From positions 1-64,000 of the forward strand of contig CM097885.1 in the NCBI GenBank assembly GCA_044892525.1: a stretch of 64,000 bases of DNA, written 5' to 3'. Source of the stretch: Schmidtea polychroa (lineage: Eukaryota). Shown here in pieces: positions 40,244 to 63,577 of this stretch. Position 1 is the first letter of the stretch; every line of letters starts with the position of its first letter. The translations under genes and the position numbers were made by a program. The notes under the pieces were generated by a model. The model did no database searches and was not told where the DNA came from. It worked only from the letters and a program-made list of their open reading frames with translations.

Positions 40244-41653
40244 ATGTCTCTAAATAAATATTGGAGATGTGAAAGTTGTAATTGTCAAGTTACAAGACTT
40301 CATAAAGCAAGTCATTTAAAAACTAAAAAACATACAGGAGGTGATCTAATTCCACGAGCTGGAGGCGATTTGCAATCTTCAAAAACAACATCTTCAATAT
40401 TAAAACCTTTTACTACAGAAAAATATCCAGGTGAAAGACATTTATTTAAACACAACTATACTGGACCAGGAACACGTCTAGATATTAGATTAGATGAAAA
40501 TAATAATCCCAAACAAGGAGAAGAACCAATAAATAGAATTGATCAAGCAGCTTTAAAACATGACATTGCATACAATTCAACAAATCTTAGAGATAGACAT
40601 GTTGCAGATGTGAATTTAATACATGATTTAAATAGTATCCAAAATCCATCAACCCAAGAAAAGATTCAAAGAGCTCTAGTTAAATTAGCAATGAAAGGTA
40701 AGATTTTCATAGGCTTAGGACACAGTCCGATCACCATGGGTGCAAGACTTCCTAGGAAAGCAAAAGATGTTGCTTATAAAAAGATTATCGAACAAGCAGA
40801 GATTGAAAGATCCCTCGAGAGTACAGCCAAGACTAGTTTACAAACCCCAACAGAATCAGAAATAAAATATGCAAAGGAATTACACCATGAATTTAGAAAA
40901 AATAAAAAATATTTAAAAGTTCAAGTACATGAAAAAGATCAAACATGGTCTGCAGATTTAGTCTTTATGCCCAAATCATCAGACCCTGAAAAATATAAAA
41001 TAATTTTAACTGTAATAGATTTATATACAAGATTTGCTTTTGCAAGATGTTTAGAAAATAAAACAGGATATTCTATTACAGAAGCATTTGAAAATATATT
41101 TGAAGAAAATCAAAGAATCCCAAAATATTTATGGTGTGATAAAGGAACAGAATTTTATAACAAAGTTTTTACAAAGTTTTTAAATGAAAATGATATTAAA
41201 TTATATTCAACAGAAAACGAAGGAAAAGCAGTCGTAGTTGAAAGATTAAATAGAACATTAAAAAATAAAATGTGGAAATATTTTACTGCTATTGGAAAAC
41301 AAAAATGGAACAATGAATTGTTACAAAAGATTGTAAATGAATATAATAATGATGTACATAGTTCTATAAAATTAACACCTTTAAATGCTTCCATGAAGCC
41401 TGAAACCATTAAAGTGGTAAATATTGAAAATGATGTTATTGAAAAACCAAAGTTTAAAATTGGTGACCGAGTAAGAATATTTAAATATAAAAATAAATTT
41501 GAAAAAGGATTCACAGCAAAATGGACAAATGAAATTTTTATTATAAATAAAATACATTATACAACTCCAATAACATATACCATCTTTGATTTAAATAATG
41601 AAAAAATATTAGGTAGATTTTATAATAATGAACTACAGAAAACAGATTTTTAA
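40244..41653 (+). CDS. Zn finger, parvovirus-type phospholipase A2 and rve integrase fusion
   Basis: CESC..HLKTKKH; HNYTGPGT..PINRIDQAALKHDIAY..AD; DDE triad in WSADL, WCDKGTEF, VVERLNRTLK. Confidence 0.9.
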   Translation: MSLNKYWRCESCNCQVTRLHKASHLKTKKHTGGDLIPRAGGDLQSSKTTSSILKPFTTEKYPGERHLFKHNYTGPGTRLDIRLDENNNPKQGEEPINRIDQAALKHDIAYNSTNLRDRHVADVNLIHDLNSIQNPSTQEKIQRALVKLAMKGKIFIGLGHSPITMGARLPRKAKDVAYKKIIEQAEIERSLESTAKTSLQTPTESEIKYAKELHHEFRKNKKYLKVQVHEKDQTWSADLVFMPKSSDPEKYKIILTVIDLYTRFAFARCLENKTGYSITEAFENIFEENQRIPKYLWCDKGTEFYNKVFTKFLNENDIKLYSTENEGKAVVVERLNRTLKNKMWKYFTAIGKQKWNNELLQKIVNEYNNDVHSSIKLTPLNASMKPETIKVVNIENDVIEKPKFKIGDRVRIFKYKNKFEKGFTAKWTNEIFIINKIHYTTPITYTIFDLNNEKILGRFYNNELQKTDF

Positions 41654-41664
41654 GTCGACAAGCC

Positions 41665-42456
41665 CTAAAACAAACTTTTCCATATTTCAGCTTCTTCTCT
41701 ATCCAAATAAATATAATTATATTTTTCTTTCCAATGATTATCAACAAACATATCAAACATATTCTTATCAGGTTCAACATTTGAAAATAAATCATTATAA
41801 ATCATATTCTTATCACGGCGATCTAATTTAAAAAATATAAAACAATTGGAATTATTTCTTATTGAATTTTTATCTAAAGCATAATATGTTTGAGATATAT
41901 AAATAACATTACAATTATTATGTCGACCTCGTGTAAAGTAACTCTTTTGAATCTCTTGATTTTTCATATTAACAACATCATCAAATATAACTAGATTCTT
42001 TTTATCTTTAGGAAGTAAATCACAATGTAAAACATCTTCAGGTTTATTAGAGAATAAAACTTGAATTGCCTCCTGCCCTTCTTCACAAATATAATCATTT
42101 TTATTACTAATATCTGATTCTAAAATCTTTTCCTTATACCAATCAACCATATCACAAGGTTGAAAAACTTCTTCAGGACACCTATGTTGATTTTTAAAAA
42201 TATCAATTATTGCTTTTTTAGTTAATTTATTTTCAAATCCACATTTCAAAAGTTGTAATTCTGGTTGATTTATGGTTGTAGAATAAAAGATTAAATTATT
42301 ATAATCTAAAAAATCATCTTCAAGTAACATTCTCAAAACAAGTACATTCTTTCCACATCCAGAAGAACCAACAATTAATAATCTAAAATTATCAGGAAAT
42401 ACTTTATTATTAAATTTACTCTTATGTCTATTTAAAATTGGTTTCCAAATATCCAT
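41665..42456 (-). CDS. Polinton A32/FtsK-like packaging ATPase
   Basis: Walker A GSSGCGK, Walker B LVIFDD, RGRH, ISQ, IRNN; likely ATG at 42456. Confidence 0.92.
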   Translation of the reverse strand: MDIWKPILNRHKSKFNNKVFPDNFRLLIVGSSGCGKNVLVLRMLLEDDFLDYNNLIFYSTTINQPELQLLKCGFENKLTKKAIIDIFKNQHRCPEEVFQPCDMVDWYKEKILESDISNKNDYICEEGQEAIQVLFSNKPEDVLHCDLLPKDKKNLVIFDDVVNMKNQEIQKSYFTRGRHNNCNVIYISQTYYALDKNSIRNNSNCFIFFKLDRRDKNMIYNDLFSNVEPDKNMFDMFVDNHWKEKYNYIYLDREEAEIWKSLF

Positions 42457-42471
42457 TTTGTTTATTATAAA

Positions 42472-43050
42472 ATGACAACTGAAGAATCTTTGCAAGAATT
42501 AATAAATTCAAATAAAAATAAATCAGTAGTAATTGATGGTAAAAAATATTTTATTGGAAAACATGTAAAAGAACAAGTTAGAGCGAAGCTCCACGAAGCT
42601 AAAGAAGGTGGCATTCTTCCATTAGCTGCTTTAATACCTGCAATCATTGCTGGTTTATCAGGTGCTGCTGGAATAGCTGGAGGAATTGCAACTACAGTTC
42701 AAAAAGCTAAAGAATCTCAAAAGACAGACCTAGAAAAAGAAAAACTACAAACTGAAATCGATTCAATGAAGAAGGTAGGGCAAGCTAAAGGAGGAGTGTC
42801 CGTTGGAAAGGGTCTCTATCTTAATCCATATGAGGGGAGTCGGCAAAAGTCTCAGGGCAAAGGTCTTTATCTTGATCCTTATAAAGGTAGAGGTTTAAAT
42901 GATTTTTTAAAAAATCAAATTTCTACATCTGAATCTTTATCTTCAAAAGATAAAGAAGGTTTAAAAAAAATATGTAAATCTTTAAAGAATGGATGCCTTT
43001 GTAAAACTAAAAATGGTAAAGGATTATACTTGAAGCCCTTCGAACTATGA
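42472..43050 (+). CDS. Polinton virion core/membrane-active protein (adenovirus pX/pVII-like)
   Basis: GGILPLAALIPAIIAG hydrophobic motif; three GKGLYL repeats, which are putative protease sites. Confidence 0.7.
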   Translation: MTTEESLQELINSNKNKSVVIDGKKYFIGKHVKEQVRAKLHEAKEGGILPLAALIPAIIAGLSGAAGIAGGIATTVQKAKESQKTDLEKEKLQTEIDSMKKVGQAKGGVSVGKGLYLNPYEGSRQKSQGKGLYLDPYKGRGLNDFLKNQISTSESLSSKDKEGLKKICKSLKNGCLCKTKNGKGLYLKPFEL

Positions 43051-43072
43051 TACCATTTTTGATACCATTAAA

Positions 43073-43954
43073 ATGGTATATGAAGAAAGATTAGCACTTT
43101 TAAAAAAAATACAATCAGAACAAGATAAATATAATAAAAAAGATACAACTCAACATGCTGAATCTATAATATTAAATGAGGTAATAACACAACAACAGGG
43201 GCCAACAATTAAAGCTATAAAAGAGTTGGAAGATTTCAATGAGCAAGCAAAATTTAAAGAGTTAGAAGATAAAAAACAAAAAATAAAAGAACTAGAGTGG
43301 CAGGATAAAGAAAAAGAATCCAGTGAAAACCATCCTGAAAGAAATCAAAGAAAAAGCAGAAGAATTTCTAATGTGGAAGAAGAAGAAATGTTTTTAAAAA
43401 CAAAAGCTCTTAAAGTTGATCCTAAAATTAGAGATGATTTACCTCCTTCAATTAGACCCACATTTAATACTAATACTGAAGGATATCAAATAATAACAAT
43501 TAATAAACAAAACTTTACTTTATATTCAAATTCAGAAAATAAATCACGTATTCATTCACAAAATGTTTATAATAATGAATATTTAGACTTTGAATTTACA
43601 GATGATTTTTATAGATTACTTTGTGGATATTTTTCAGATGATGTTGAAGAAATTAAAAAATATTTAAATTTAATAAAATTAATAAGAGCTAGTTCTAAAG
43701 CAAAATATATTCAAGATTTAAAGAATTATTTAAATAAAAATGAAAAGGGTTATGTTGTTACAGAGGGAGAGGGATTAATTAGTAAAGGTGGTAAACCAAA
43801 TCCCATCAATCTTTTTATTGAATTAAGAAAACTATTAGCTGCAAGGAAAGCAGGACATAATAATTTAGATTCTGATATTTTAAAGATTTCTAAAGATTTG
43901 TTAAAACAAGGAATAATTTCAAAAGATAAATTTAATAAGTATACGAAGTTATAA
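43073..43954 (+). CDS. Polinton hypothetical protein
   Basis: 293-aa ORF in the morphogenesis cluster with GEGL and AARKAGHN motifs; conserved in the second copy. Confidence 0.7.
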   Translation: MVYEERLALLKKIQSEQDKYNKKDTTQHAESIILNEVITQQQGPTIKAIKELEDFNEQAKFKELEDKKQKIKELEWQDKEKESSENHPERNQRKSRRISNVEEEEMFLKTKALKVDPKIRDDLPPSIRPTFNTNTEGYQIITINKQNFTLYSNSENKSRIHSQNVYNNEYLDFEFTDDFYRLLCGYFSDDVEEIKKYLNLIKLIRASSKAKYIQDLKNYLNKNEKGYVVTEGEGLISKGGKPNPINLFIELRKLLAARKAGHNNLDSDILKISKDLLKQGIISKDKFNKYTKL

Positions 43955-43976
43955 ATACGAAGTTTTAAAATACAAA

Positions 43977-44441
43977 ATGACTCCTTCAATATTAGATTTT
44001 TTAAAAACATTTGGAATAAATGCAAAAACAAATTTTGATTTAAAAGATTATGCAAATTATTTAAATTTAAAAATTAAAATATTAATGAATGATGAATTAT
44101 CAAGTCTGGAGAGTCCCCTGAATATAATAATCAATTATCAAAATTCAAATGAAAAAGGATCTCATTGGGTTTGTATATATAAGAAATCTATCTACTTTGA
44201 TTCTTTTGGGATTAAACCTACTAAAGAAGTTGAAGATTATCTCTTGAGGGGTTCTCCGATTGATTCCCCAAATGGTTATACTTTTAACTCTTTACAAGTT
44301 CAACCTTTGAATACTAAAATATGTGGTATTTTAAGTTTATATGTTTTGTATAGATTGAATAAGGGAGAGGGAAAGGGGCATACGCAGGATTTTGAATCTA
44401 TAATTCAAGAAATTTATAATGATCTAGAATCTCTACTATAA
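43977..44441 (+). CDS. Polinton adenain-like maturation cysteine protease
   Basis: GSHWV, YFDSFG and QVQ..CG catalytic motifs. Confidence 0.92.
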   Translation: MTPSILDFLKTFGINAKTNFDLKDYANYLNLKIKILMNDELSSLESPLNIIINYQNSNEKGSHWVCIYKKSIYFDSFGIKPTKEVEDYLLRGSPIDSPNGYTFNSLQVQPLNTKICGILSLYVLYRLNKGEGKGHTQDFESIIQEIYNDLESLL

Positions 44442-44489
44442 GGATTTTTACTATAAGGATTTTTACTATATGAATTTACTACTAAAGAA

Positions 44490-45254
44490 ATGGAGCTTCA
44501 CAACCCTCCGGAAGATAATTTAAAAAAAATGGTAAACATAATGTCAGATAAATATTCAAGAACTTTATCTATAAATTCAAAAGAATCAGAGTTTACTATA
44601 AACTTTCAAGATTCAATTAAATTAGATCAAAATATAAATTATGAATTGGGGCTATTATGGTTTTGTGCTTATAATACTATTTTTAATATAACTAAAGATA
44701 ATAATAAATTTACTATTCAAACTCGTGATGGGCATAAACCAGAAATTATAACAATAGAACCTGGGGCATATGAGATAAAAGATTTAAATGATATACTTTC
44801 TAAAAAAACAAATGAAGGTATTAAAATTAAAATGGATATACCAACTTCAAAATGTGTAATGACTTTGAAGAATATAAAAATTAGTTTTTTAGATAATTGT
44901 TTCTTTCACACAGTTTTAGGATTTAAACCTATGGATATAACAATAAAAGAAGATAAAATAATAACATCAGAACATATTATAAAAATAATAAATACAAACA
45001 CAATAAATATTCATTGCGATTGTATAACAGGTTCTTATAATAATGGTAAACAAACAAATGTTTTATATTCCTTTCCCTCAAACACAGTTCCTATGGGATA
45101 TAAAATAGTTGAAAGAATGAATCCTCCAAATTATTTACCTTTATGTAGAAAATATATAATGGATATTAATTTTAAAATTCTTAATCAAGAAGGAGAATTG
45201 ATTGATTTTAATGGAGAAGAGATTTCAATGTATTTACATTTGAAACAGGTTTGA
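44490..45254 (+). CDS. Polinton minor capsid (penton-like) protein
   Basis: YNTIFNI..NN, PGAYEI, LGF, IHCD.I.GSY.NG, NQEG..IDFNGE. Confidence 0.82.
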   Translation: MELHNPPEDNLKKMVNIMSDKYSRTLSINSKESEFTINFQDSIKLDQNINYELGLLWFCAYNTIFNITKDNNKFTIQTRDGHKPEIITIEPGAYEIKDLNDILSKKTNEGIKIKMDIPTSKCVMTLKNIKISFLDNCFFHTVLGFKPMDITIKEDKIITSEHIIKIINTNTINIHCDCITGSYNNGKQTNVLYSFPSNTVPMGYKIVERMNPPNYLPLCRKYIMDINFKILNQEGELIDFNGEEISMYLHLKQV

Positions 45255-45278
45255 AGATTCATTTTAAATTATTAATAA

Positions 45279-46288
45279 ATGAGTTCTTATATTCCATGTA
45301 ATAGAGGTGGTGGAACAATAAAAACAGGGTTTAATACAGAAGAAATATTAACTTTAACAGAAAATAAATATATTAATGAAAGAGGTGATTCAATGAAGGG
45401 TGATTTAATTTTAAATGGACACAAGATAAAAGAATTATCTTTTCCAACTGATGAAGCTGATGCAGTTAATAAGAAATATGTAGATGGTGTTAAAAAATAT
45501 ACTGATTTAACAATAACAAGAATTGAAAGTTCATTAACAACAAAAATTGATTCAATGGAATCAAAGCTTAATAATATCGAACAACGATTTAATGATAAAT
45601 TTGACAAGTTACAAAGTCTGTTAACTGAACAAGTTGTAAAGTTAAATACTGCTATATTAAATTCTAAAGATAAACAAATTATGAATACTAAATTTAATAC
45701 AATATATAATATAATAAATGAGATGATTACATCATTTAATTTCAAATTTCAAATTTAGAGTCTCATGGAACACACATTAACACCACACATAGTATTAGAA
45801 AAAGAGCTGCTGAATTAGAACAGAATAAAACATTATTACCCCATACATATAAACATTTTATAGAACCAAGTTTAATAACAACAAACAGTAAAGAATGGGG
45901 TGTTTTTATGGTTGTAAAAATTATTGATCCTTATTTCTTTTTGTTTGATGATGATAATGAAAGAATGAAATGGTTTGTGAAATGTGATTATAATAGTAAG
46001 CTTGAAAAGGGTGATGTTATAATGACTAGTTATGATTTACCACACGGAGATTGGTATGTTAATACTCATTCACATGGACTACATAAAGTTAAAAGTAAGA
46101 ATATTCATTTTTCTAGTTCACTTGTACAATATATAGATTTAATATTTTATGAAAAAAAGGTTGATGTTGATGAAGTTCGTAAAGCATTGAGAGAATTGTA
46201 TAAAGATATCCTCTCAACAAGAGTTTCTTTTGATATCCGAGTATTGGTGCCAGATGGTGCTCAGAAGAATAAAGTCTTATTTTTTTAA
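45279..46288 (+). pseudogene. Fibre-like protein, frameshifted copy of the 336-aa gene at 61243-62253
   Basis: Split into 159-aa and 126-aa ORFs by a 6-to-5-bp replacement at about 45740. Confidence 0.8.
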
Positions 46289-46296
46289 TTATTAAA

Positions 46297-46908
46297 ATGG
46301 AAGAAGTAAGAGAAGAAAAAATTTACCCAGAATTGAGATCATCAGGATATAATTCCGAAGGTCACAAAGGTTCCAAGGCCTCGGCTCCCACAGAACTTGA
46401 AATTATGAGAGTAAAAGAATTTAAATCAGAAACCTTACATTTACAAGATTTATTAAAGCATTATAAAAAAATTAAAAATAGATGGAATAAAGGGAATACA
46501 GTTTTAAAAGTTATAGGTTATTCTTTAGGATTTGCATCTGCAATATTAACAGTTATTTTACCCATAACTTTACCAGTTGTTACTCTTGCACCTGTAATAC
46601 TTGGAAGTATTTCTGTGGCTGATGGTTTCTTAACTGAAATAGTTTCATTATCTTATACTTCTAAAAAGAAAAGTTTATATAGAGAAGTTTGTTTATCAAT
46701 AGAATTAGGAATCTCTAAATTATTTTTATTTCAATTAAAAGCTTTGGAAGATGGAATCCTGACAGACGAAGAAATAATGAAATCAAATCAAATAATACAA
46801 GATATAAAGAATGAGGTTATAAGATTAAAAAGGGAGGGCATGGTGGCTAATGTTATAAGTAATAAAAAAACATCTCGAGAAAAATGGTTAAAGAATTCTT
46901 ACTTATAA
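46297..46908 (+). CDS. Polinton membrane protein with an N-terminal YPxL motif
   Basis: IYPEL..ASAP, coiled coil, hydrophobic hairpin (VIGYSLGFASAILTVILPITLPVVTLAPVILG). Confidence 0.72.
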   Translation: MEEVREEKIYPELRSSGYNSEGHKGSKASAPTELEIMRVKEFKSETLHLQDLLKHYKKIKNRWNKGNTVLKVIGYSLGFASAILTVILPITLPVVTLAPVILGSISVADGFLTEIVSLSYTSKKKSLYREVCLSIELGISKLFLFQLKALEDGILTDEEIMKSNQIIQDIKNEVIRLKREGMVANVISNKKTSREKWLKNSYL

Positions 46909-46969
46909 AAAAGTAGATCAGGTTGCTATAGTTGCTTAAATTAATTGTCGACATTTTATTATTAAAAAA

Positions 46970-47412
46970 TTAAATATCGTTGAAAGCCAACCTATGAATC
47001 ATTAATTTATGATCTTTAAATTCTTTATCACTTAGACCTTTTATATATTCAGGATCAGTATTAAAATATTTAAGTTCTAAACATATAGGATTAAAAACTT
47101 GAGAATATAAAGGTTTCTCGATTTCTCTCACGGGATAAATAAATATCAAGATCAGTAATCTTTGTATCATATAACTTATTCAACTTTTCTAGATTTTTTA
47201 TTATAGGGATTAAATTATGAATCTCTTATCATCATAATTTGATAATGATATTTTTTGAGATTCTATCAAGTGAATATCATGGTTTTCACTTTTAAGTTGA
47301 TGTATTTCATCAATTTTATCTTTATGATTTGGATTCAATGTATCTATATAATCTTGATGAGAAAGATTCTTTGCAACCACTCTCTGTATTCCTTTACATC
47401 TGTTATCCTTTA
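46970..47412 (-). pseudogene. 3' fragment of family-A pPolB with deletions
   Basis: Reverse complement of about 60035-60540 (KDNRCKGIQRVVAKNL..YDDKRF..HRLAFN). Confidence 0.85.
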
Positions 47413-47499
47413 AATTAGTAATATTTTTTATAATTTCAAAAATGTTATTTTCTTGATTTTTAGTTTCCATCATTTTATAGTGTTAAAATTCTAATTCTT

Positions 47500-50400
47500 A
47501 GACCAGTCGTAATTGATTTATAATTATTTCTGCAGTAATGCTTTTTAACATTAATTTATGTGATTTAAAGTCTTCTGGTGTTAGTCCTTGGATATATTCA
47601 GGATCAGTATTAAAATATTTAAGTTCTATAGGTTTATATTTTGAACTTGATTATATAAAGGTTTAGGAATTAATATTTCAGGATATTGGATTTCTACTTT
47701 AGCAAGTTGAAGGTCTGTAATCTCTAGGTTATAAATTTCATTTATTTTATCAAGATTTTTTATTATAGGGATTAAATCATTTCCAATAGGTAATGTTGTC
47801 TTCAAGTCAGAAAGTATAAATCTTTTATCATCATAATTTGTTATAGCAATCTTGTTACACTCTTCAAGATATATATTATGTTTCTCTGATTTAAGATGAT
47901 GGGTTTTAGCAATTTTATTTTTATAATTTATATTTAATGAATCTTTATACTCTTGATGTGTGAAGGTTTTTGACACTGATTTTTGAATTCCTTTACTTTT
48001 ATTTTCTTTATAGCTTTTCGGGTTTTCAGGGAATGAAGGATATTCAAATGTGTGATCTATTTCAACAGATCCTTCTCCCTCCCCTATTATAAATTTTATT
48101 GTATGCTCTTTCATAATTGGTTTGTCTTTCATTTCAAGAGAATATTGTTTAGGTCTAATAAACACTCCTCCACTTATTGGAGTATTTGGTTTTTCATCTT
48201 TAAAAGTAAATAATTCTCCAGAGTTGTTTATTAATTTATTTAAGGTTTCGTTTTCACTTATTTCCTTTTTTAAATCTTTACTATGACCAATTTAAAAACA
48301 TACTATCAGTGTCCATAGCATGCATGGATATTCGATCTCCAAAATGGGGTACTAGAACATCATAGTAGGTCTCATACATTTGAAGCTTTGAAAGTTCTAA
48401 AATTGAAAAACCTATAAAGATTGGTTTATTATAAGTTTTTACAAAGTTTTTAATCTCTATAGCTATAAGGTTACTAGAGAATATCTCGGCATTTTTAAAT
48501 GTGGGCTTTCCAATTATCCGGTTGTACCTATTAAGGTCTTTGGATGTATTGGTCAAAAGCTCTACACGTGTGTACTTGTCTATATTCTCCATGGTCTTTC
48601 CAAAGACCGCATTGTTCAGGAGTTTGTAAATCATATCAAGAAATGCATTTCCAGCTCTCTTTGCTGCATTTCTTTTCAAAATATTTCCCTCTATGAATTT
48701 TTTCATAAAAGGGGCTTGTCGAAATTTAATAATGGAATGTACTTTTTTTAAAACCATTCCATGGGAGAGATAAAACTGAAGGTCTATAATGACAAAGGTA
48801 ATCAGTTTTATCGGTCTGATCGCATAAAAGTTTTATACAGGGCGATCTATCCTGAGCCATCTGCCAGTCTGAAAGTTCTTCAGTCGAGATCTTTCTTCTT
48901 ACTGGAGCAAATGGAAAGAATCTTGTCCTGGATTTTATTTCATTGGGATATTCAAGATCGCATTCTATGACATATCCAAATTGAGAATCTTTTGGTGTTT
49001 TTAGAATTTCTTGTATTAATTCCTCAGTGGGGTCTTCCCAGGTGAACTTGCCAATTGGAAGTTATTGAGTCATTACTCCCGCATATAAAGCTGTTGCATC
49101 TATATACATTATTTCAGAAGGATTAGAAAGACCTTCCATTATTTCCTTACAATCTTCTGGGTTTGTTATTTCTACATATAGAGCATCAGGATCTTTGAAA
49201 AATTTAGGATAAAGAGTTGTAAAATTATTAGCATTTATTTCTCTATTCCCTTGTACTGAAGAAATACCTCCTCTAATATTATGTTTATATACATTAAACA
49301 TATCAAGCTCAACTAATATTTCAATAGTTTTATTTCTTACTGCTACATCTTCATCAGTCCATATGGTATATAATAATATATCCCAAGCTAGAGAGGGAGC
49401 GGTTATATAATTATAAGGTTTTAATTCAAAAGCTTTTGAAAATGTCTCGAAGCAATCAGCTAAGATATAAACATCCAAGGAAAGATACATGTCAGTATAT
49501 TCTCCAAGGTTTCTACAGTTGAATAGATTCCACATTTTAACTGCACGGGAATATTCCTGATCAGAAATCCCTGATTGTGTTAAAACAGAAAAGAAATCTT
49601 CTTGGGGTGGGAGTAATTCATTATATTTTTCAAAGGAGTCTATATAATCATATGGATAGATTCCTTTTGCTAGACAGGTATTATATTCCTCTAATGGAAT
49701 ATTGTTTTTTAATAACACATGTTCTTTTGTATATTTAAAATCCTCAGGGTTCATAGTTTTAGCAATCCCATCCAAAGACATCCCTAAGAAATTTAACGAG
49801 TCCAAAAACTTAAAGCATCCATATTGAATGCTTTTATATTTTTCTTTTGTAAGTCCAATAACCTTGAAAGAGTTTTTAGCATTTGCGGCCAGATGCTTAA
49901 TGAATAGGTGAATATCATAGCCAAAAATATTGTGAAATATAAATGGTATGTGTGTTGGTTTTTTACAATTGAGATTACATTTTTTATGGGCTGCTCCTCT
50001 GTAATTATTTTCTCTTTTAAAATGATCATGGTCTGCAACCTTTGGCTCCTCATCCTCAAACTCTTGTTTACACATCCAGCAGTGTGTTGCATTTTTATAT
50101 TCTTCCTCTTGTTCTTCTGAAAAATTCATAGGAAAGTTGGATTTTAATATTATATATAATTCATGTTCTAGATTATTTAAAGTTTTAACAAAATGATCTA
50201 GAGTCTCTTTGTCAGAAGTTCCTCTAAATGAATATTCTCTAGATTCTACAAGTTCTGGATAATTACTTTTAAAAAACATTTTATAAGCAGAGGGTAATTG
50301 TTTTGTTAGTTTTACAGTATTAGTTTTTGTTCGTCTTAGTTTTACATTTATAGCTTCAAAATCACAATAAACCACTCCCAATGCTTCTAATAGATTGGAA

Positions 50401-51875
50401 TAGTTTTTAAACCTCATATTAGCATTTTTCTTGTGTGGCATTTTTATTAAAGCAGGTTGATTCTTACAACAGAGTCTCTCATGTTTAATAGCAGCAAGTT
50501 TTGAACTTGAATGATATAAACATCTTTTACAACATATGCCTCCACGAATGAGTGTGTTTCCTTTCATAAAACTTTGAAAATTCTTTATTAAGATATAATG
50601 AAGTTTTTTATCTAACATAGTGCCTCCGGACGCAGTGCTTTCTGCTTCTGGTTCTAATGAAATGCCTTCTTCTGCTTCTCTCCTCGGGTGAACGCTTTGA
50701 ACCTCTTCACCATATTCTTCTCCATCAAAGTCTTCATCTGGTTTACCTTCTTCTAATATTAAAAGATCTACTTCTCTCTTTTCATCTGAGATTTCCATGT
50801 TAGAAATGTAAATAGGAATAATGTGTTTATAATTTTTATTTTTTCTAGTTTTTGTAATTTTGGTTGGAATGAATTGATAAATATTAATTTTAAGATTATT
50901 TAATTTTTCAAATGCTGGAACATCTTCAATTTTCATTGGGTGGGAAAAATCTTTTGGATAAATTAATTCAGATTCATATTCTTCATATTTTTGAACTCTC
51001 TGTGGGTTAGTTGCTTGAGGATGTAAGTGTGCAAGTATTGACCATTGAAAACATTTATTATCTTTATTCTGTACATTTATAACATGGTTGGAGGTGAATG
51101 GTGTGTGAATAAAAGATTTAGGATTTGGTGGTGCGCCTCTCCAGTATTCAATCTCTATATTTTGAAAAGAGTGGAATCTTAAATTAGATTCTCCTAGTTC
51201 TTGTTCCACCTGTTCTTGTTTTTCTTCCAATTCTTTAGCTATATCATTAACAAGTTTATTTCCTGCTTTTGTAGAAAATAAATATTTATATGAGGTTTCA
51301 ATTTTTACATCTAGAGGCATTGCGATCGAATCATCTCCTCTCCAGTATTTTGCATTTCCTGTAAATTTAACTTTTATAACATTAAATCTTGATCTACCAA
51401 ATTTTTTTATAGCATCATCCATTGATGATATTATTTTTTTTTTATTTTCTCTTATATATTGCATGATTGATCTGGGTCCTCGTTTTACTTCTGCAATTAC
51501 ATCGGTGTGATTGAAGTCATCCCAATTAAACTCTAGTTTTTCAGCTTTTTCAGTCATTGAGTTTGAATCAGAATCTTTTGCTTCAAGACCACAATCTTCT
51601 ATGTGTCTTAAGTAAAAAGATTTTATCCTCATCGTTTTTCCACATGCTGAACATTCGAATATTTCTCTGTTTTTAGGAACTCCAATACAATTTTTAAAAT
51701 GCTTCTTATAACCTGAAAATAAATATCTATCCTTACATTTAGTACAGATTTTGGAATTAGTGTCATCTAGTGTGTTAGCTTTTATTAAATGGTCTTTTGA
51801 TTTTTTATGAGATGTTAAAGCAGTTTTATTTTTAAAATTTTTTTCACAAATTTCACAATTGAAAATAGCTTCCAT
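47500..51875 (-). pseudogene. Protein-primed DNA polymerase B, Polinton family B (nonsense codon plus frameshifts)
   Basis: N-terminal Zn fingers, YCDFE exonuclease motif, DHDH..RGAAH..CN endonuclease-VII-like insert, FLDS, KGIYPY, IDATALY, KLLNNAVFGK, DTDS; TAA at 49062 where family A has Tyr. Confidence 0.9.
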
Positions 51876-52034
51876 TTTTAAAAGAATCTTTTGGTTGGAT
51901 ACGATGTTTTGGTTTTGATATTAATTTTTATTTTTTTAAATCTAAAAGTGATCAGGCGACCTAGATCATTATGAATTAGGTAATCTGATATTCTTATAAC
52001 ATTAAATCCTTATAACATTAAATCCTTAAGACCA

Positions 52035-52281
52035 AGTAGTGAGGAATCTATGCACCCCGTTACCTTTTCTCGGAATTACTAATCTATAAATACATCTATT
52101 CCGAACTTTTTTACTTTTAAGGGAAGAAATTAAGGGTTAATGGCAATAGGGGACAAAGTTTAAAAGTTAAAAAAAGTGAAGAATATGGGGTAAAAAAGCA
52201 TATAAATGTGGAAAATATGGGTCAATAGCGCTGTTTTTTTTTGAGGGTGGGGGTGCTGGGGTGCATAGATTCCTCACTACT
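52035..52281. repeat. Polinton family-B terminus: perfect 24-bp inverted repeat AGTAGTGAGGAATCTATGCACCCC bracketing 247 bp
   Basis: 52035-52058 is the reverse complement of 52258-52281. Confidence 0.9.
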
Positions 52282-52618
52282 CTAATTCCTCAAATCCATC
52301 CATCAAATTTTCATTCCAACCTTTAGAATAATACCTTCCATAATTAGACAAACTCCTTCAACTGAATCACAACCTAATCCCTCAAATTCACTACAAACCT
52401 CCGGACTCAAGGTTTTAGAATTTTTGTTTGTGAATAAAAGTTTTTGTCATAAGTTATATTATTGTTAATTATTATTCTATTTTTATCCATTACACAACAC
52501 TCACCCCGACTGTCCCAATACATTTTTATCGGTGACTCTTTCGGGCTCGTCAAATTTCCAACCAAACACTACAACTAATAAACACCCACAAATATATAAG
52601 TAACTTATAAACATAACA
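52282..52618 (+). mobile_element. Partial Gypsy LTR (3' end) inserted in the BEL RT
   Basis: Reverse complement of 34593-34929; ends CATAACA exactly where the BEL ORF breaks (FNRLVFGL|). Confidence 0.85.
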
Positions 52619-55245: not shown

Positions 55246-55497
55246 AGTAGTGTGTATATATACCCAACCCAAACAGCCCTCCCAACAAAAACATACCTCC
55301 ATTACGCTTAAACCATTAGAAAAACAACATAAAACCTATGTTTTTATAGTATTTTAACCCCATATTTTAAACAACAACCACCCTTAATCTTTAAAGCCTC
55401 AAACTCAAAAGCTTCAAACTAAAAAGAGAATAGAAAAGAAAATGGCCTTATGAAAAAGTTAGAGGGCTATTTGGGATAGGGCTATATACACACTACT
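55246..55497. repeat. Polinton family-A terminus with an inverted repeat (15 bp perfect, about 36 bp imperfect) bracketing 252 bp
   Basis: AGTAGTGTGTATATA at 55246 and TATATACACACTACT ending at 55497. Confidence 0.88.
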
Positions 55498-56081
55498 GAT
55501 CGCAATGAAACTCCGGAGTTGATCTTTATCAGATTATTGATTTTAAATTATATAAATTAAAAAATAAATGAAAAATAGTAAAACTGCTCTGAGGGGACAG
55601 TGGTATTTTTTTTTTTTTTTCACTGTCCCCTCAACAGTTTTTTTGATCCGGATCATTTCAACCTCTTTCGTTTATCAAATCTCTTCTAATATACAAGCTG
55701 GCCAGACTCATACATCAGAATCAATCCGATAATAGCAGCACGCCTTATTATTCGCTTCTCGCTCACGAAGTCGATTTCAACGGCGTTTTAAGCGTGCTGC
55801 TCGAAAGTACAAATGAATTCGAAAGCGAATCCGAAAGAGGTCCGAAAACAACTGAGAAAGGGATCGATCCGGGGGTGTTCGAAAGACAGGTGGCGATAAT
55901 TACCGGTTCGCCACCATCACCCGTTTCAATAATTTTTTTTTCATATTTATGTTTAAAAATAAAATAATTAATAAAATAAATAAAATAAATAAAATAAAAT
56001 AAAATAAAAATAAATAAAATAAAATATAAATCTAAGATACCCACACTATTAATTTCAAATTTTTAATATTATTTTATGTTG

Positions 56082-56165
56082 AAAAAAAAACTAACCACAG
56101 TTAGGATTTGAACCGCTATCCATTTGAACCACGGTGCCGGTCTAGCCCACTGCGCTATCTAGGAT
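56082..56165 (-). ncRNA. Putative Pol III tRNA-like element (A-box, B-box, oligo-T); second copy at about 34362-34450
   Basis: Minus strand reads TAGCGCAGTGG...GGTTCAAATCC...TTTTTTTTT; no clean cloverleaf. Confidence 0.45.
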
Positions 56166-56263
56166 TGGATTTTTGTCATTTTTTATACTGTCACATTATG
56201 AAAATAAATATAAAAACATAAAAAATCAAAACAGGATATCCAATAAAAAATTTTTTTCTAAAA

Positions 56264-59200
56264 ATGAATTGTAATATTTGTAATAAAGTTTTTAAAAATA
56301 AAACTGGATTAATTTCTCACTTAAAATCGAAAGCTCATTTATTAAAAGAAAACAATCTTAATGATACAAATTCAAAAGTTTGTCCTAAATGTAGAGGAAG
56401 ATTTCTACATTCTGGATATAATAAACATTTTGAAAATTGTATCGAGAAAAATAGAGAAATATTTACATGTCCTCATTGTAACTTTTCAACAAAACTAAAT
56501 TTCTATTTTTTAGAACATATGAAAGAATGTAAAAATAAAAAACAAAATTCTGACGATGAGGAATGTCATTCAGAAGGAGAACCTGATCATGTTGAAAGAG
56601 AAAAATATAACTGGGATAATTTTAAACATATAGATGAATTTCACTTAAAAATTAATGGGCCTGCAACTCCTGGAGAATATATAAATAAAAATAAAAAAAA
56701 TATTAAAGATTCTTTCACTGAAGCTTTAAAAAATTATAAACCGACAAGGTATAATGTTATAAAATATAAAATTATAATAAAAGCAAAATACTGGCGAGGA
56801 GCAGAAGAAAAGACAACACCCTTAGATGTTGAAATTGGAATACCTTTTAAATATTTATTTTCAATTAAAGGATTTGATAAAACCATCAAAGAAATAATTA
56901 AAGCAGCAGAAGCAAAACAAGAGGAAGTAGAAAATGAATTAGGAGATTCAAACTTAGTATTCAACTCTTTCCAAACTTTAGTGATTGATTATTGGAGAGG
57001 ATTACCACCCAATCCTAAATCTTATATTCCTACACCCTTTAAATCTAAAAATGTTATAAATGTACAGAATAATGATAACAAATGTTTCATCTGGTCAATA
57101 CTTGCACATTTACATCCTCAAGCAACAAATCCCCAAAGAGTTTCAAAATACAAACAATATGAAAATGAATTAATATTTCCCAAAGGATTCAAACACCCAA
57201 TGAAACTAGAAGACATTCCAGAATTTGAAAAATTAAATAATCCTAAACTTAATATTTATGAACATGTTATAGGGAAAGAAATTATTCCAATTTATATTTC
57301 AGATAGTGGAACCAAGGATAACGGAGCACAGGACAACGAGATATATCTTTTAATCTTGGAACAACAAAATAATCAACATTATGTTTTAATAAAAAACTTT
57401 CAAGCTTTTACATCACCAGAGAATCCAACTAGTGGAGGAGGAACATGTAAAAGATGTCTTCATTATTCAACAACTAAAAACTCTATGATTAAACATACAA
57501 GATTTTGTGAAAAAGATGATCCAGCTTTAATTAAAATGCCTAATAATCCCAAGATGTATTTTAAAAACTTTTCAAATTTACTACAAACAGTTGGAGTTCT
57601 TTATGGTGACTTTGAATCTATAAACCATAAACAAGATTTGGTTTATCAATATTTAAAAATAATAGAAAAAAATAAACTCATGGATTTATGGAACTCCCCA
57701 GGAGAGAAGATGAAACCAGAGAGGATGAAAGCCTTTCTAAGAAAAAGAAATAAACCTAATAGTGTTAAAAAAACTAAACAATTACCATCTGCTTATAAAT
57801 TATTATTTAAAAGTAATTATCCTGAACTCATAGAATCTAGAGAATATTCAATTCTAGGAGGTACCCCTGAAGAAGTCTTGAATCATTTTACTAAAAATAT
57901 AAATGATCTAGAACATGAAATATTTAAAATATTAAAAACAAAGTATCCTCAAAATATTTCTAATCAACAACAACAAGAATATGAAAATACTTCCAACTGT
58001 TGGATGTGTAAACAGAATATTCTTCCTGATGAAAAAGTTATAGATCATGATCATTTAAAAAAGGAAAATAATTATCGAGGAGCAGCTCATAAAAGTTGCA
58101 ATCTTAATTGCCATACTCCTAAATTTATACCTGTTATATTTCATAATCTTTTTGGATATGACATACATCTATTTATTAAACATTTAGCAGCAAATGCTAA
58201 AAACTCTTTAAAAGTTATCTTCTTAACAAAAGAAAAATATAAATCAGTTGAATATGGGAAATTAAAATTTATAGACTCGTTAAACTTTCTTCAAATGTCT
58301 CTAGATGGAATAGCTAAAACAATGAAACCAGAAGATTTTAAAATCACTCGAGAATTCTTGGAAAAAAATAATATTCCTCTAGAAGAATATCCTACATGTT
58401 TAGCAAAAGGAATATATCCTTATGGCTATGTTGACTCGTTTGAAAGATATAATGAAACAAGTCTTCCTAACAAAGAAGATTTCTTTTCAAACTTACTACA
58501 ATCAGGGATTACAGATCAAGAATATTCTCGAGCATTAAAAATGTGGGAATTATTCAAGTGTAAAACTTTAGGAGAATATACCAACATGTATTTATCCTTA
58601 GATGTTTATATTCTAGCAGATTGCTTTGAAGAATTTACAAACTCTTTTGTTCTTAAACCTTATAATTATATAACTGCACCCTCTTTAGCTTGGGATACTA
58701 TGTTATATACCATTTGGACTTCAAATATAGAAGATGCTGATAAAATTATAGATCTTTTAACTAACCTCGATATGTTTAACCAAATTAAAACAAACATTAG
58801 AGGAGGAGTCTCTTCAGTAATGGGGAATAGAGAAATAAAAGCTAGAAATGCAATAACTACTAGCCGAAGACTATCTAAACACCCTGATGATCCATATATG
58901 AAAATTAACAATGAGGAATTAAAAGAATTATTAGAAACAATGAAAAATCCTATATTTATACTTTATATAGATGCAACAGCTTTATATTCAGGAATTATGA
59001 CTCAATATTTACCAATGAGTGATTTCACTGAAATAGAGAACCCAACAGATGACCTTATGAAAGAAATACTTTCAACATCGAAAGATTCTCCAATAGGTTA
59101 CTTTATAGAATGTGACCTCGACTATCCAGATGATATAAAATCAGGAACAAGATATTTTCCTTTAGCTCCCATAAGAAGAAAGATTGATATCAACGAACTC

Positions 59201-60529
59201 TCTGAATGGCAAATCTCACAAGATAAACCTCCAACAATGAAACTTCTTTGTGATCAAACAGATCGAAGGTTTTATCTTTGTCACTATAGACTCCTCCAAT
59301 TTTATCTCTAACCCTAAAGTTCATAGTGTCATAAGATTTAAACAAGCTCCATTCATGAAAGCTTTTATCGAGGAGAACATTAGGTGTCGAAACATTGCAA
59401 AAAGAGAGGTAATCTTTTTAAAGATAATAATTATAAACTTTTAAACAATTCAGTCTTTGGGAAAACAATGGAGAATGTTGATAAATATACTCATATTGAA
59501 CTCCTAACAAATACTACCAAAGATATTAAGCGTTATAATCGCATGCTAGGAAAGCCTACATTTAAAAACGCACAAGTATTTTCTGAAAATCTTACTGCAG
59601 TAGAATTAAAAAAGTATGAGAAAACATATAACAAACCAATATTTATAGGGTTTACAATTTTAGAACTTTCAAAATTACAAATGTATGAAACATATTATAA
59701 CATCTTACAACCTATATACGGAGCAAATATATCAATGCATGCAATGGATACAGATTCAATGTTTTTAACAATAAGAACTCATGATTTACAAAAAGATATG
59801 AAAGAAAATCCTATACTTTCAAATTTAATAAATTCATCTGGAGAACTATTTTCGTTTAAAGATGAAAAACCTTTTACTCCTATAGAAAATGGAATATTTA
59901 TTCGTGCTAAACAATATTCATACGAAACATTTAGAAACCCTGAATTTATAACTAGATCATTTATATTTAAAACTCCAGAAACAGTAGAAACCATAACACA
60001 TAGATATCCTATATTTCCTAAAGAAGAAAAACCTGTAAAGGATAACAGATGTAAAGGAATACAGAGAGTGGTTGCAAAGAATCTTTCTCATCTAGATTAT
60101 ATATATACATTGAATCCAAATCATAAAGATAAAATTGATGAAATACATCAACTTAAAAGTGAAAACCATGATATTCACTTGATAGAATCTCAAAAAGTAT
60201 CATTATCAAATTATGATGATAAGAGATTCATACTAAGTGATTTAAAGACAACTCTACCTATTGGAAATAATTTAATCCCTATAATAAAAAATCTAGAAAA
60301 GTTGAATAAGTTATATGATACAAAGATTACTGATCTTGATATTCATAATGTTGAAATTATTTATCCCGAGAGAGAAATCGAGAAACCTTTATATTCTCAA
60401 GTTTTTAATCCTATATGTTTAGAACTTAAATATTTTAATACTGATCCTGAATATATAAAAGGTCTAAGTGATAAAGAATTTAAAGATCATAAATTAATGA
60501 TTCATAGGTTGGCTTTCAACCATAACTGA
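56264..60529 (+). pseudogene. Protein-primed DNA polymerase B, Polinton family A (two frameshifts, at about 59310 and 59408)
   Basis: 1015-aa and 381-aa ORFs bridged by a short third frame; YGDFE, DHDH, FIDS, IDATALY, KLLNNSVFGK, DTDS. Confidence 0.92.
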
Positions 60530-60640
60530 AACCAACGATATTTAATTTTTTAATAATAAAATGTCGACAATTAATTTAAGCAACTATAGCAACCTGATCT
60601 ACTTTTTTAAAAATACACCCATTTTATAAGTAAGAATTCT

Positions 60641-61234
60641 TTAACCATTTTTCTCGAGATGTTTTTTTATTACTATAACATTAGCCACCATGCCCTCCCT
60701 TTTTAATCTTATAACCTCATTCTTTATATCTTGTATTATTTGATTTGATTTCATTATTTCTTCGTCTGTCAGGATTCTATCTTCCAAAGCTTTTAATTGA
60801 AATAAAAATAATTTAGAGATTCCTAATTCTATTGATAAACAAACTTCTCTATATAAACTTTTCTTTTTAGAAGTATAAGATAATGAAACTATTTCAGTTA
60901 AGAAACCATCAGCCACAGAAATACTTCCAAGTATTACAGGTGCAAGAGTAACAACTGGTAAAGTTATGGGTAAAATAACTGTTAATATTGCAGATGCAAA
61001 TCCTAAAGAATAACCTATAACTTTTAAAACTGTATTCCCTTTATTCCATCTATTTTTAATTTTTTTATAATGCTTTAATAAATCTTGTAAATGTAAGGTT
61101 TCTGATTTAAATTCTTTTACTCTCATAATTTCAAGTTCTGTGGGAGCCGAGGCCTTGGAACCTTTGTGACTTTCGGAATAATATCCTGATGATCTCAATT
61201 CTGGGTAAATTTTTTCTTCTCTTACTTCTTCCAT
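60641..61234 (-). CDS. Polinton membrane protein (copy of 46297-46908, different C-terminus from a frameshift)
   Basis: Near-identical protein. Confidence 0.75.
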   Translation of the reverse strand: MEEVREEKIYPELRSSGYYSESHKGSKASAPTELEIMRVKEFKSETLHLQDLLKHYKKIKNRWNKGNTVLKVIGYSLGFASAILTVILPITLPVVTLAPVILGSISVADGFLTEIVSLSYTSKKKSLYREVCLSIELGISKLFLFQLKALEDRILTDEEIMKSNQIIQDIKNEVIRLKREGMVANVIVIKKHLEKNG

Positions 61235-61242
61235 TTTAATAA

Positions 61243-62253: not shown

Positions 62254-62277
62254 TTATTAATAATTTAAAATGAATCT

Positions 62278-63042
62278 TCAAACCTGTTTCAAATGTAAAT
62301 ACATTGAAATCTCTTCTCCATTAAAATCAATCAATTCTCCTTCTTGATTAAGAATTTTAAAATTAATATCCATTATATATTTTCTACATAAAGGTAAATA
62401 ATTTGGAGGATTCATTCTTTCAACTATTTTATATCCCATAGGAACTGTGTTTGAGGGAAAGGAATATAAAACATTTGTTTGTTTACCATTATTATAAGAA
62501 CCTGTTATACAATCGCAATGAATATTTATTGTATTTGTATTTATTATTTTTATAATATGTTCTGATGTTATTATTTTATCTTCTTTTATTGTTATATCCA
62601 TAGGTTTAAATCCTAAAACTGTGTGAAAGAAACAATTATCTAAAAAACTAATTTTTATACTCTTCAAAGTCATTACACATTTTGAAGTTGGTATATCCAT
62701 TTTAATTTTAATACCTTCATTTGTTTTTTTAGAAAGTATATCATTTAAATCTTTTATCTCATATGCCCCAGGTTCTATTGTTATAATTTCTGGTTTATGC
62801 CCATCACGAGTTTGAATAGTAAATTTATTATTATCTTTAGTTATATTAAAAATAGTATTATAATCATAAAACCATAATAGTCCCAATTCATAATTTAAAT
62901 TTTGATCTAATTTAATTGAATCTTGAAAGTTTATAGTAAACTCTGATTCTTTTGAATTTATAGATAAAGTTCTTGAATATTTATCTGACATTATGTTTAC
63001 CATTTTTTTTAAATTATCTTCCGGAGGGTTGTGAAGCTCCAT
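62278..63042 (-). CDS. Polinton minor capsid protein (copy 2)
   Basis: Near-identical to 44490-45254. Confidence 0.82.
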   Translation of the reverse strand: MELHNPPEDNLKKMVNIMSDKYSRTLSINSKESEFTINFQDSIKLDQNLNYELGLLWFYDYNTIFNITKDNNKFTIQTRDGHKPEIITIEPGAYEIKDLNDILSKKTNEGIKIKMDIPTSKCVMTLKSIKISFLDNCFFHTVLGFKPMDITIKEDKIITSEHIIKIINTNTINIHCDCITGSYNNGKQTNVLYSFPSNTVPMGYKIVERMNPPNYLPLCRKYIMDINFKILNQEGELIDFNGEEISMYLHLKQV

Positions 63043-63090
63043 TTCTTTAGTAGTAAATTCATATAGTAAAAATCCTTATAGTAAAAATCC

Positions 63091-63555: not shown

Positions 63556-63577
63556 TTTGTATTTTAAAACTTCGTAT

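What the first reader, a model, noticed from the sequence alone, without database searches (positions are those of the whole stretch)
52035..52281. Polinton termini carry a second, inverted copy of the AGTAGT origin about 250 bp inside, in two different families
Seen: family B has a perfect 24-bp inverted repeat spanning 247 bp (52035-52281). Family A has a 15-bp perfect (about 36-bp imperfect) inverted repeat spanning 252 bp (55246-55497). The sequences differ beyond AGTAGTG, yet the geometry and position upstream of pPolB are the same, and neither cassette has its own TSD. Established: Polinton TIRs begin with AG/AGT repeats used for protein priming and integration. Inference: each end could fold into a local panhandle, act as an invertible cassette, or release approximately 250-bp mini-replicons. 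I do not know of a description of this terminal architecture.
Basis: partly seen in the sequence, partly recalled or inferred. Interest (0 to 1): 0.72.

Follow-up and report, generated by a model that had tools for sequence, protein, structure and literature searches.

The report
Polinton ends with built-in fold-back copy
Two distantly related virus-like jumping elements (Polintons) in a eukaryotic genome each carry a mirror copy of their first 15-24 bases about 250 bases inside the end, so a single DNA strand is predicted to fold back onto its own tip, which likely helps mark or rebuild the end when the element is copied.

Summary
Both inverted repeats are real and beyond chance: B has 24/24 bp over 247 bp, A has 15 perfect (31/36) over 252 bp, and neither has a TSD. 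The outer AGTAGT of each is a true insertion junction. The inner copy is a fixed part of the element end: a high-depth contig crosses B's inner junction unbroken, and all three ends keep one loop orientation. This argues against solo MITEs, an invertible cassette or released mini-replicons, on limited data. The A and B polymerases are 55% identical, their loops look weakly homologous, and both arms changed together at 6 of the first 15 positions, so complementarity seems maintained. The third end (33515) has lost the terminal part of the inner arm, so the feature is not universal. None of 4 AGTAGT contig ends of distant relatives has it. Best reading (inferred): the 3' strand folds back locally, like Streptomyces 'Rabbit Ears' telomeres, to define or rebuild a duplex origin. 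I found no description in 10 paper searches. No whole genome was available for a survey.

The parts
52258..52281 (-). Family B outer terminus (AGTAGT end) and outer arm, 24 bp; true right end of the element, inserted in a 338-bp LTR-like repeat
   Evidence: contigs of X2, X5 and X7 carry 52281/52282 onward joined to other sequence (pieces 11, 17, 25); window copy 34593-34930 is the uninterrupted form
52035..52058 (+). Family B inner inverted copy of the terminus, 24/24
   Evidence: crossed unbroken by contig X2-10, 51948-52241
52059..52257 (.). Family B loop, 199 bp, weakly homologous to the A loop in one orientation
   Evidence: 1 of 500 shuffles as good; flipped 249 of 500
51938..52034 (.). 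Non-coding stretch inward of the B cassette; probable inner part of a ~344-bp TIR (inferred)
   Evidence: same X2 contig; one X2 contig has other letters before 51938
49062..51875 (-). Family B pPolB, N-terminal ORF; the gene continues in separate pieces to about 47500 and is broken
   Evidence: PF03175 on the piece 48281-48757, E 1.5e-9
55246..55281 (+). Family A outer terminus (AGTAGT end) and outer arm; true left end, inserted in a Bel/Pao-like retrotransposon remnant
   Evidence: X1 (11 contigs) and X7 (1) continue with other letters behind 55245; DUF1759 ORF 52550-54913
55462..55497 (-). Family A inner inverted copy: terminal 15 bp perfect, 31/36 overall
55282..55461 (.). Family A loop, 180 bp
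55498..56189 (.). Rest of the family A terminal repeat; 55572-56185 is 570/596 identical to the 33515 end
56264..59311 (+). Family A pPolB, N-terminal ORF; broken, continues in a separate ORF at 59468-60529
   Evidence: 55% identical to B
33515..34475 (+). Third end: A-type terminal repeat, probably the capsid-side end of the left element, inserted in the rDNA spacer satellite; lacks the terminal part of the inner arm, with a ~90-bp non-homologous block at 33764-33852 that holds a small hairpin
   Evidence: (empty site seen in the repeat copy at 32265)
38928..47412 (.). Body of the left A-type element: DJR capsid, PLA2-like/rve integrase ORF, A32 ATPase and further genes; fused without a terminus to the B fragment at about 47412
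   Evidence: 43523-47412 vs 60036-64000: 23 mismatches, 7 gaps in 3975 columns

Best explanation
The 250-bp unit is a fixed part of the terminal repeat in this Polinton lineage, with an inner mirror copy of the terminus that is likely kept complementary by selection, so that the strand carrying the element's 3' end would fold back locally into a 24-36 bp stem closing exactly on its last base. Shown: the repeats, their place at real insertion junctions, the fixed inner junction in B, and the joint change of both arms between A and B. Inferred: after excision or strand displacement this stem would (1) give the protein-primed polymerase a double-stranded origin without the two ends, some 15-20 kb apart, having to meet, and (2) mark the exact end, since unpaired host bases could be trimmed and lost terminal bases re-copied from the inner arm. 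That copying would explain why the terminal 15-24 bp are perfect while the distal arm drifts. Occasional run-on extension of the paired 3' end would make palindromic (snap-back) by-products. The device would be optional, since the 33515-type end lacks it.
For: Repeats far beyond chance. The stem ends exactly on the first base of AGTAGT in both families. Both arms carry the family-specific letter at 6 of the first 15 positions (8, 10, 12-15) in families whose pPolB are 55% identical, while span (247/252) and loop orientation are kept. Predicted pairing of the last 12 nt of the 3' strand is at least 0.89 (A) and 0.94 (B), against 0.12-0.29 for the last 4 nt at 33515. Of 15 mismatches in the distal arms (A positions 16-40, B positions 25-37), 9 are G-T wobbles on the 3' strand and 0 on the 5' strand (partly a consequence of C-rich outer arms). 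Inner junction unbroken in X2 contig 10. Precedent in another protein-primed system: Streptomyces Palindrome I/IV duplex and fold-back end repair (PMC5449611, passages); panhandle origin regeneration in adenovirus (PMC9863843, passages).
Against: Only two ends with the feature were seen in full, and no biochemical or single-strand data exist. The 33515 end lacks it, and X1 contigs skip 55471-55518 (9 contigs) or 55444-55595 (1 contig), so copies without it exist. Letters of the 33515 type are the majority at site 55780 in all four runs, and in X7 the A-type outer segment has depth about 10 against about 200 for the inner repeat, so the feature may be a minority among A-like ends (the tool warns that depth is no copy number). 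0 of 4 AGTAGT contig ends of distant relatives have it. A/B loop homology is weak (z about 3, shared base gradient), and the inward flanks do not align above shuffles (267 of 500; shared 10-mer 54 of 1000). Concerted arms fit a protein-binding site equally well. No listed contig bridges A's inner junction.
Confidence: 0.45

Rival explanations
1. The inner copy is a second, inverted binding site for the protein that recognises the end (integrase, terminal-protein/polymerase or a host factor), acting in double-stranded DNA without folding, like the outer and inner ends of composite transposon arms (Tn5/Tn10, recalled).
For: Explains the joint change of both arms and the fixed ~250-bp spacing; no flip needed, matching.
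Against: Does not by itself require the copy to include the very first base, nor the wobble bias on the 3' strand. An inner end usable by the integrase should give solo cassettes, and none was seen (limited view).
Confidence: 0.2
2. Neutral relic or recurrent by-product: a copy-back or internally deleted mini-element (both ends 250 bp apart) capped the element end and was spread to the TIRs by homogenisation. It decays (A: 31/36; 33515: lost) and is occasionally re-made (B: 24/24).
For: Gradient of decay from B through A to 33515; copies lacking it persist, and X1 shows an A-type end joined behind 55370 inside the repeat (table 5c); the outer ~330 bp varies more than the inner repeat (204/223 plus a non-homologous block, against 570/596).
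Against: The same span and homologous position in families with 55% pPolB identity, with family-specific arms, need either long maintenance or a hot spot that itself depends on fold-back.
Confidence: 0.2
3. The cassette is an invertible segment, a flip/flop hairpin end, or a free ~250-bp mini-replicon/MITE that moves alone.
For: The geometry (two inward-facing AGTAGT ends) is formally that of a mini-element; the X2 cassette contig has about 4 times the depth of the pPolB-start contig (438 vs 105).
Against: No TSD. Contig X2-10 is unbroken across 52035 and 52058, where solo or flipped copies would branch, and it includes 87 nt of inward flank at the same depth. None of the 15 joints shown of 60 changes strand. 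Same loop orientation at three ends. No other cassette copy in the window or in the 129 fetched loci.
Confidence: 0.08
4. The pairing matters at RNA level: an outward-reading transcript of the cassette folds into a long-stemmed non-coding RNA, or the inner copy acts in the pPolB promoter.
For: The wobble bias fits the outward-reading strand as RNA as well as DNA; B's inner copy lies 160 bp from the pPolB ATG.
Against: No Rfam match at E up to 1; the A distance is 767 bp; there is no reason for an RNA stem to end exactly on the DNA terminus.
Confidence: 0.05
5. Chance or assembly artefact.
For: The locus is repeat-rich and rearranged (rDNA, nested retroelements); the best DNA holder may be the source sample.
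Against: Shuffle controls; a separately assembled contig matches B's inner junction with 0 differences; two different sequences show the same geometry.
Confidence: 0.02

Closest known systems
Polinton/Maverick (adintovirus-like) TIRs with 5'-(AGT)2//(ACT)2-3' end motifs (PMC8097293 and bioRxiv 10.1101/2023.08.22.554363, passages read)
   Same: AGTAGT termini, pPolB next to one end, rve integrase, DJR capsid, A32 ATPase; terminal repeat of about 340-940 bp, within the reported 46-1,447 bp range; end motif assigned to jumping-back priming.
   Different: The passages seen describe one end motif per terminus and no inner inverted copy; 0 of 4 AGTAGT contig ends of distant relatives show one.
Streptomyces telomeres, 'Rabbit Ears' fold (PMC5449611, passages read)
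   Same: Protein-primed end whose 3' single strand pairs its terminal bases (13-bp Palindrome I/IV duplex) with an inner inverted copy; fold-back templated repair of lost terminal bases has been shown there, using the Palindrome I hairpin.
   Different: Seven short palindromes in 180 nt, an internal origin with end patching, Tpg/Tap and no family B polymerase. Here there is one 15-36 bp stem with a ~200-nt loop in a pPolB element. The paper states that no such repair was reported for adenovirus- or phi29-type replicons.
Adenovirus and bidnavirus panhandle (PMC9863843 and PMC4938981, passages read)
   Same: A displaced single strand regenerates a duplex origin by pairing inverted repeats.
   Different: There the two genome ends pair; here the partner lies 250 nt from the same end.
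Terminal palindromes of Halocafeteria virophages and PLVs (bioRxiv 10.64898/2026.07.28.741278, passages read)
   Same: Self-complementary sequence at the TIR extremity of integrated Polinton-related elements, proposed to fold and prime replication.
   Different: 52-nt palindromes found with a gap limit of 10, preferentially in elements without pPolB; here the arms are 180-199 nt apart in pPolB elements.
Composite transposon arms (Tn5/Tn10 outside and inside ends) and parvovirus flip/flop hairpins (both recalled, not read)
   Same: An end module bounded by inverted copies of the terminus.
   Different: No sign here that the inner end is used alone or that the loop flips; no Rep/HUH nickase was noted among the ORFs scanned.

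Membership tests
Polinton/Maverick | Protein-primed family B polymerase | tested here: met
   PF03175 on the B piece 48281-48757, E 1.5e-9; A is 55% identical to B; several homologues carry PF03175. Both genes are broken into pieces.
Polinton/Maverick | Retroviral-like integrase | tested here: met
   PF00665 in 40244-41653, E 7e-12, with a PLA2-like domain; seen in the left A-type body only
Polinton/Maverick | DJR major capsid protein and A32-like packaging ATPase | tested here: met
   PF21738 E 8e-26; PF04665 E 1e-8
Polinton/Maverick | Adenain-like maturation protease | tested here: inconclusive
   ORF 43977-44441 gives only Peptidase_C39 at E 0.057; its resemblance to adenain is recalled
Polinton/Maverick | (AGT)2 end motif at true insertion junctions | tested here: met
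   33515, 52281 and 55246; empty-site forms
Polinton/Maverick | Pair of TIRs and a 6-bp TSD around one element | tested here: inconclusive
   No complete element in the window: the left one is an A/B fusion whose flanks do not match, and the right one runs off the window; the two A-type ends are 84% alike
MITE / solo non-autonomous element | Own TSD | tested here: not met
   no flanking direct repeat of 3-9 bp
MITE / solo non-autonomous element | Stand-alone copies with varied flanks on both sides | tested here: inconclusive
   none in the window or 129 loci; X2 contig unbroken at B's inner end; whole genome not held
Invertible cassette / flip-flop hairpin end | Both loop orientations present | tested here: not met
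   one orientation at 3 of 3 ends and in X2 contig 10; no strand change among 15 joints shown of 60; contigs drop rare variants
Streptomyces-type fold-back telomere | Terminal 3' bases can pair with an inner inverted copy | tested here: met
   predicted pairing of at least 0.89 over the last 12 nt; prediction only
Streptomyces-type fold-back telomere | Internal origin, end patching, Tpg/Tap and an array of short palindromes | tested here: not met
   the element encodes a pPolB, and the repeat search shows one terminal stem with a long loop; this is a likeness of working, not membership
Streptomyces-type fold-back telomere | Fold-back structure used in priming or end repair | not testable with these tools
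   needs biochemistry

The most novel reading that the evidence does not exclude
A lineage of pPolB Polintons has evolved a self-sufficient, Streptomyces-like fold-back telomere: each 3' end pairs with its own inner copy to define, trim and repair the exact terminus and to rebuild the priming origin independently of the far end. Run-on from the same paired 3' end would be the source of the giant palindromic Polinton derivatives noted elsewhere in this genome, whose centres should then be a single AGTAGT...ACTACT cassette. This would answer, for one lineage, how an excised Polinton regains precise ends.
Probability: 0.25. Interest if true: 0.8.

Novelty: new variant of a known kind. Interest (0 to 1): 0.5.

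Why it matters
How Polintons leave the chromosome and regain exact, primable ends rests on a model (end-to-end pairing of TIRs) cited from Kapitonov and Jurka 2006, which I saw only second-hand. A lineage with natural ends that have and lack an inner terminus copy gives a built-in comparison, and sharp predictions that need only the assembly: covariation of the arms, age of copies, and the centres of palindromic derivatives. If the fold-back is used, it is a convergence with Streptomyces telomeres in a replicon class for which PMC5449611 says no such end repair had been reported. It also matters for annotation, since an inner ACTACT can be mistaken for an element end or a MITE.

Tried and rejected
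Whole-genome survey: no genome is held for this window. Single-protein pPolB scan of viral contigs: 7 pattern hits, 0 relatives; capsid-alignment scan: 173 hits, 0 relatives. Exact 24-mer of the B arm in viral contigs: 0. Geometry pattern in viral contigs: 14 loci, none with a tblastn hit to pPolB, capsid, integrase or ATPase in the fetched flanks; 11 have arms of 12 bp or less, 2 are AGTAGTG microsatellites, and 1 (L115) has arms that run on beyond AGTAGT. 113 pPolB-bearing loci (33 viral, plus the best 80 of 498 metagenome hits; a few appear to be duplicates) were screened for local inverted repeats. None has a terminus-matching inner copy, but only 4 begin with AGTAGT, and contig starts need not be termini. 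L012 gives 16/20 at 614 nt (4 of 200 shuffles) but lacks the first base and is AT-rich: inconclusive. Fold-backs in L047, L052 and L073 are not AGTAGT-bounded. Rfam on 51800-56300: 0 matches. ARAGORN: 0 genes. PDB profile search: 0. No RNA holder listed. The 7-bp repeat before 52035 and after 52618 was considered as a TSD of cassette plus LTR and rejected, since the two sides belong to different elements. The idea that the 338-bp inverted pair 34593-34930/52281-52618 is family B's TIR was rejected: contigs show that this repeat continues independently past 52282. The by-eye register for the 33515 remnant was off and is not used. Earlier-findings look-ups by sequence and by words were empty.

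Full report
Observation. B has arms 52035-52058 and 52258-52281 (24/24, span 247). A has arms 55246-55281 and 55462-55497 (31/36, terminal 15 perfect, span 252). Neither cassette has a flanking direct repeat of 3-9 bp. Between 33400 and 64000 the only perfect inverted 15-mers at a span of 100-600 bp are these two and five registers of one T-run/A-run pair; shuffles gave a mean of 0.1 and 1 of 100 reached two. The first 20 nt of A and B find inverted matches of 17/20 and 20/20, reached by 0 of 200 shuffles each; the 33515 end gives 13/20 (43 of 200). Folding z-scores are -6.85 (B) and -6.27 (A).

Anatomy. The left half of the window is an rDNA array on the minus strand. An A-type terminal repeat starts at 33515 in the spacer satellite, and the uninterrupted site is seen in the repeat copy at 32265. 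It is followed by an LTR-like/Gypsy insertion (about 34593-38333), then capsid, integrase and ATPase genes, a short piece of A-type pPolB ending at 47412, and, with no terminus at the joint, a family B pPolB running to the B end at 52281. The left element is therefore an A/B fusion. Then come a 338-bp LTR-like repeat (52282-52618), a Bel/Pao-like remnant (52619-55245; DUF1759) and a second A element from 55246 that runs off the window. The two A bodies differ by 23 mismatches and 7 gaps in 3975 columns. The pPolB ORFs of A and B are 55% identical (537/978), and both genes are in pieces.

Which AGTAGT is the real end. Contigs of four public runs from three studies were laid on 51700-56400 (the tool showed 15 of 60 joints, 24 of 869 loose ends and 32 of 33,718 pieces). 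Contigs of X1 (11) and X7 (1) follow the retrotransposon to 55245 and go on with other letters. Pieces of X2, X5 and X7 follow the 338-bp repeat to 52281/52282 and go on with other letters. So 55246 and 52281 are insertion junctions. At B's inner end the opposite holds: X2 piece 10 (294 nt, depth 438, no differences) runs from 51948 to 52241 without a break. Solo copies would branch at 52035 and flipped copies at 52058 (my inference from 31-letter words), so neither is common in that run; contigs drop rare variants, and X2 may be related to the source sample. One X2 contig diverges before 51938, which suggests a B terminal repeat of about 344 bp containing the cassette (inferred from one contig). 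No listed piece bridges A's inner junction.

One inherited architecture. Read from the terminus inward, the A and B loops align better than 499 of 500 shuffles, and not when one is flipped (249 of 500). This is weak, and a shared base gradient may help. The inward flanks do not beat shuffles (267 of 500), and a shared 10-mer there is marginal (54 of 1000). At 6 of the first 15 positions A and B differ, and at all 6 both arms of a family carry the family's letter. With the span kept at 247/252, the arms have changed together. Of 15 mismatches in the distal arms (A positions 16-40, B positions 25-37), 9 are G-T wobbles on the strand carrying the 3' end and none on the other strand; the C-rich outer arms account for part of this. 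Distances to the pPolB ATG differ (outer end 1018 vs 406 bp; inner end 767 vs 160 bp).

The feature is not universal. The 33515 end matches A at 204/223 over the outer 225 bp and 570/596 over the inner repeat, but between them a block of about 90-100 bp is non-homologous (237 of 500 shuffles). It removes the terminal part of the inner arm, leaves a diverged distal remnant and adds a small hairpin. The remnant suggests loss rather than gain (inference). X1 also has contigs skipping 55471-55518 (9) and 55444-55595 (1). The 33515-type letter at 55780 is the majority in all four runs, and in X7 the A-type outer segment has depth about 10 against about 200 for the inner repeat (depth is no copy number). 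Whether a complete A element has the inner copy at both ends or only on the pPolB side cannot be told here. Among 113 pPolB-bearing loci from public collections, 4 begin with AGTAGT and none of them has an inner copy above shuffles; L012 is inconclusive. The nearest relative, L034, starts about 180 nt before its ATG without a visible terminus or inner arm. A geometry scan of viral contigs gave 14 loci with no Polinton gene in the fetched flanks.

Mechanism. At an end that has the cassette, the strand ending 3' reads body, arm, loop, complementary arm. Folding puts the last base on the first base of the inner copy; predicted pairing of the last 12 nt is at least 0.89 (A) and 0.94 (B), against 0.12-0.29 for the last four at 33515. 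Established: the (AGT)2 motif is assigned to jumping-back priming (PMC8097293, passages), and adenovirus single strands regenerate an origin by an end-to-end panhandle (PMC9863843, passages). Inferred: a local stem would give the same duplex origin without the far end, would mark where host bases stop pairing, and would let lost terminal bases be re-copied from the inner arm. This fits a perfect terminal 15-24 bp and a drifting distal arm. Regular rolling-hairpin replication is disfavoured because it predicts flip and flop loops. Rare run-on from the paired 3' end would give palindromic dimers centred on one cassette. Earlier notes of this scan report giant gene-less palindromic elements with Polinton ends and mirror-image rearrangements in this genome; I could not check them and use them only as a lead. 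I put 0.45 on this reading, 0.2 on a second protein-binding site, 0.2 on a neutral relic or by-product, 0.08 on an invertible or free cassette, 0.05 on an RNA role and 0.02 on artefact.

Comparison with what is known. The elements meet the Polinton/Maverick tests for pPolB, integrase, capsid, ATPase and end motif; protease, TIR pair and TSD are inconclusive. The cassette fails the MITE test for a TSD and the inversion test for two orientations. [quoted passage not shown] It is not a member of that class. A 2026 preprint reports terminal palindromes in virophage and PLV TIRs, but they are 52-nt, nearly loop-less and mostly in elements without pPolB (10.64898/2026.07.28.741278, passages). Passages of PMC8502044, PMC6431247, PMC12220804, PMC4938981 and 10.1101/2023.08.22.554363 describe TIRs without an inner copy. 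Ten full-text searches (listings and abstract starts seen) turned up no description. Kapitonov and Jurka 2006, Pritham 2007 and Repbase entries were not read, no supplements were opened, and any of these could hold one. That the host is an animal comes from earlier scan notes, not from a test of mine; Rfam shows only a eukaryote.

Verdict. A real, lineage-restricted and apparently maintained terminal architecture of Polintons, seen in full at two ends, with an untested but specific mechanism. New variant of a known kind; interest 0.5.

Noticed in passing
window 56099-56164 (minus) and the copy near 34385-34450: A tRNA-like unit with A-box-like and B-box-like motifs (consensus recalled) lies in the inner part of the family A terminal repeat, pointing outward; ARAGORN calls no tRNA. 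Similar B-box-like words lie near 38600 and 38810.
   Followed up: partly
window 12438-12867 vs 38526-38916: The rDNA spacer holds 243-bp tandem units that are 85% alike, inverted, to the non-coding stretch just upstream of the Polinton capsid gene: Polinton-related DNA apparently built into the rDNA spacer.
   Followed up: no
window 17410-25863: A non-LTR retrotransposon with two ORFs (the second with a Ulp1-like protease domain, RT and zf-RVT) and a long TTA tail interrupts the large-subunit rRNA gene of one rDNA unit.
   Followed up: no
window 33764-33800: Where the third end lacks the inner terminus copy, it has a compact ~25-nt hairpin instead.
   Followed up: partly
window 47412-47549: Family A and family B Polintons are fused inside the A pPolB gene with no terminus at the joint, most simply by a deletion.
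   Followed up: partly
window 40244-41653: A PLA2-like domain and the rve integrase core lie in one ORF.
   Followed up: no
window 55370 to 55245 (table 5c): One X1 contig runs to 55370 and then restarts at the A terminus: possibly one A-type end inserted into another's terminal repeat.
   Followed up: no
L073:1-250; L052:439-626: Long fold-back sequences of 190-250 bp lie upstream of pPolB-like genes in two metagenome contigs, in L073 right at the contig end; they are not AGTAGT-bounded.
   Followed up: partly
L023, L025, L029: Polinton-like viral contigs whose two inverted end repeats are only 83-86% identical, similar to the 84% between the two A-type ends here.
   Followed up: no
window 35926-36059 and 38192-38325: A 134-bp piece of the Gypsy element's 3' region is duplicated in inverted form in front of its RT-RNaseH-integrase ORF.
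   Followed up: no
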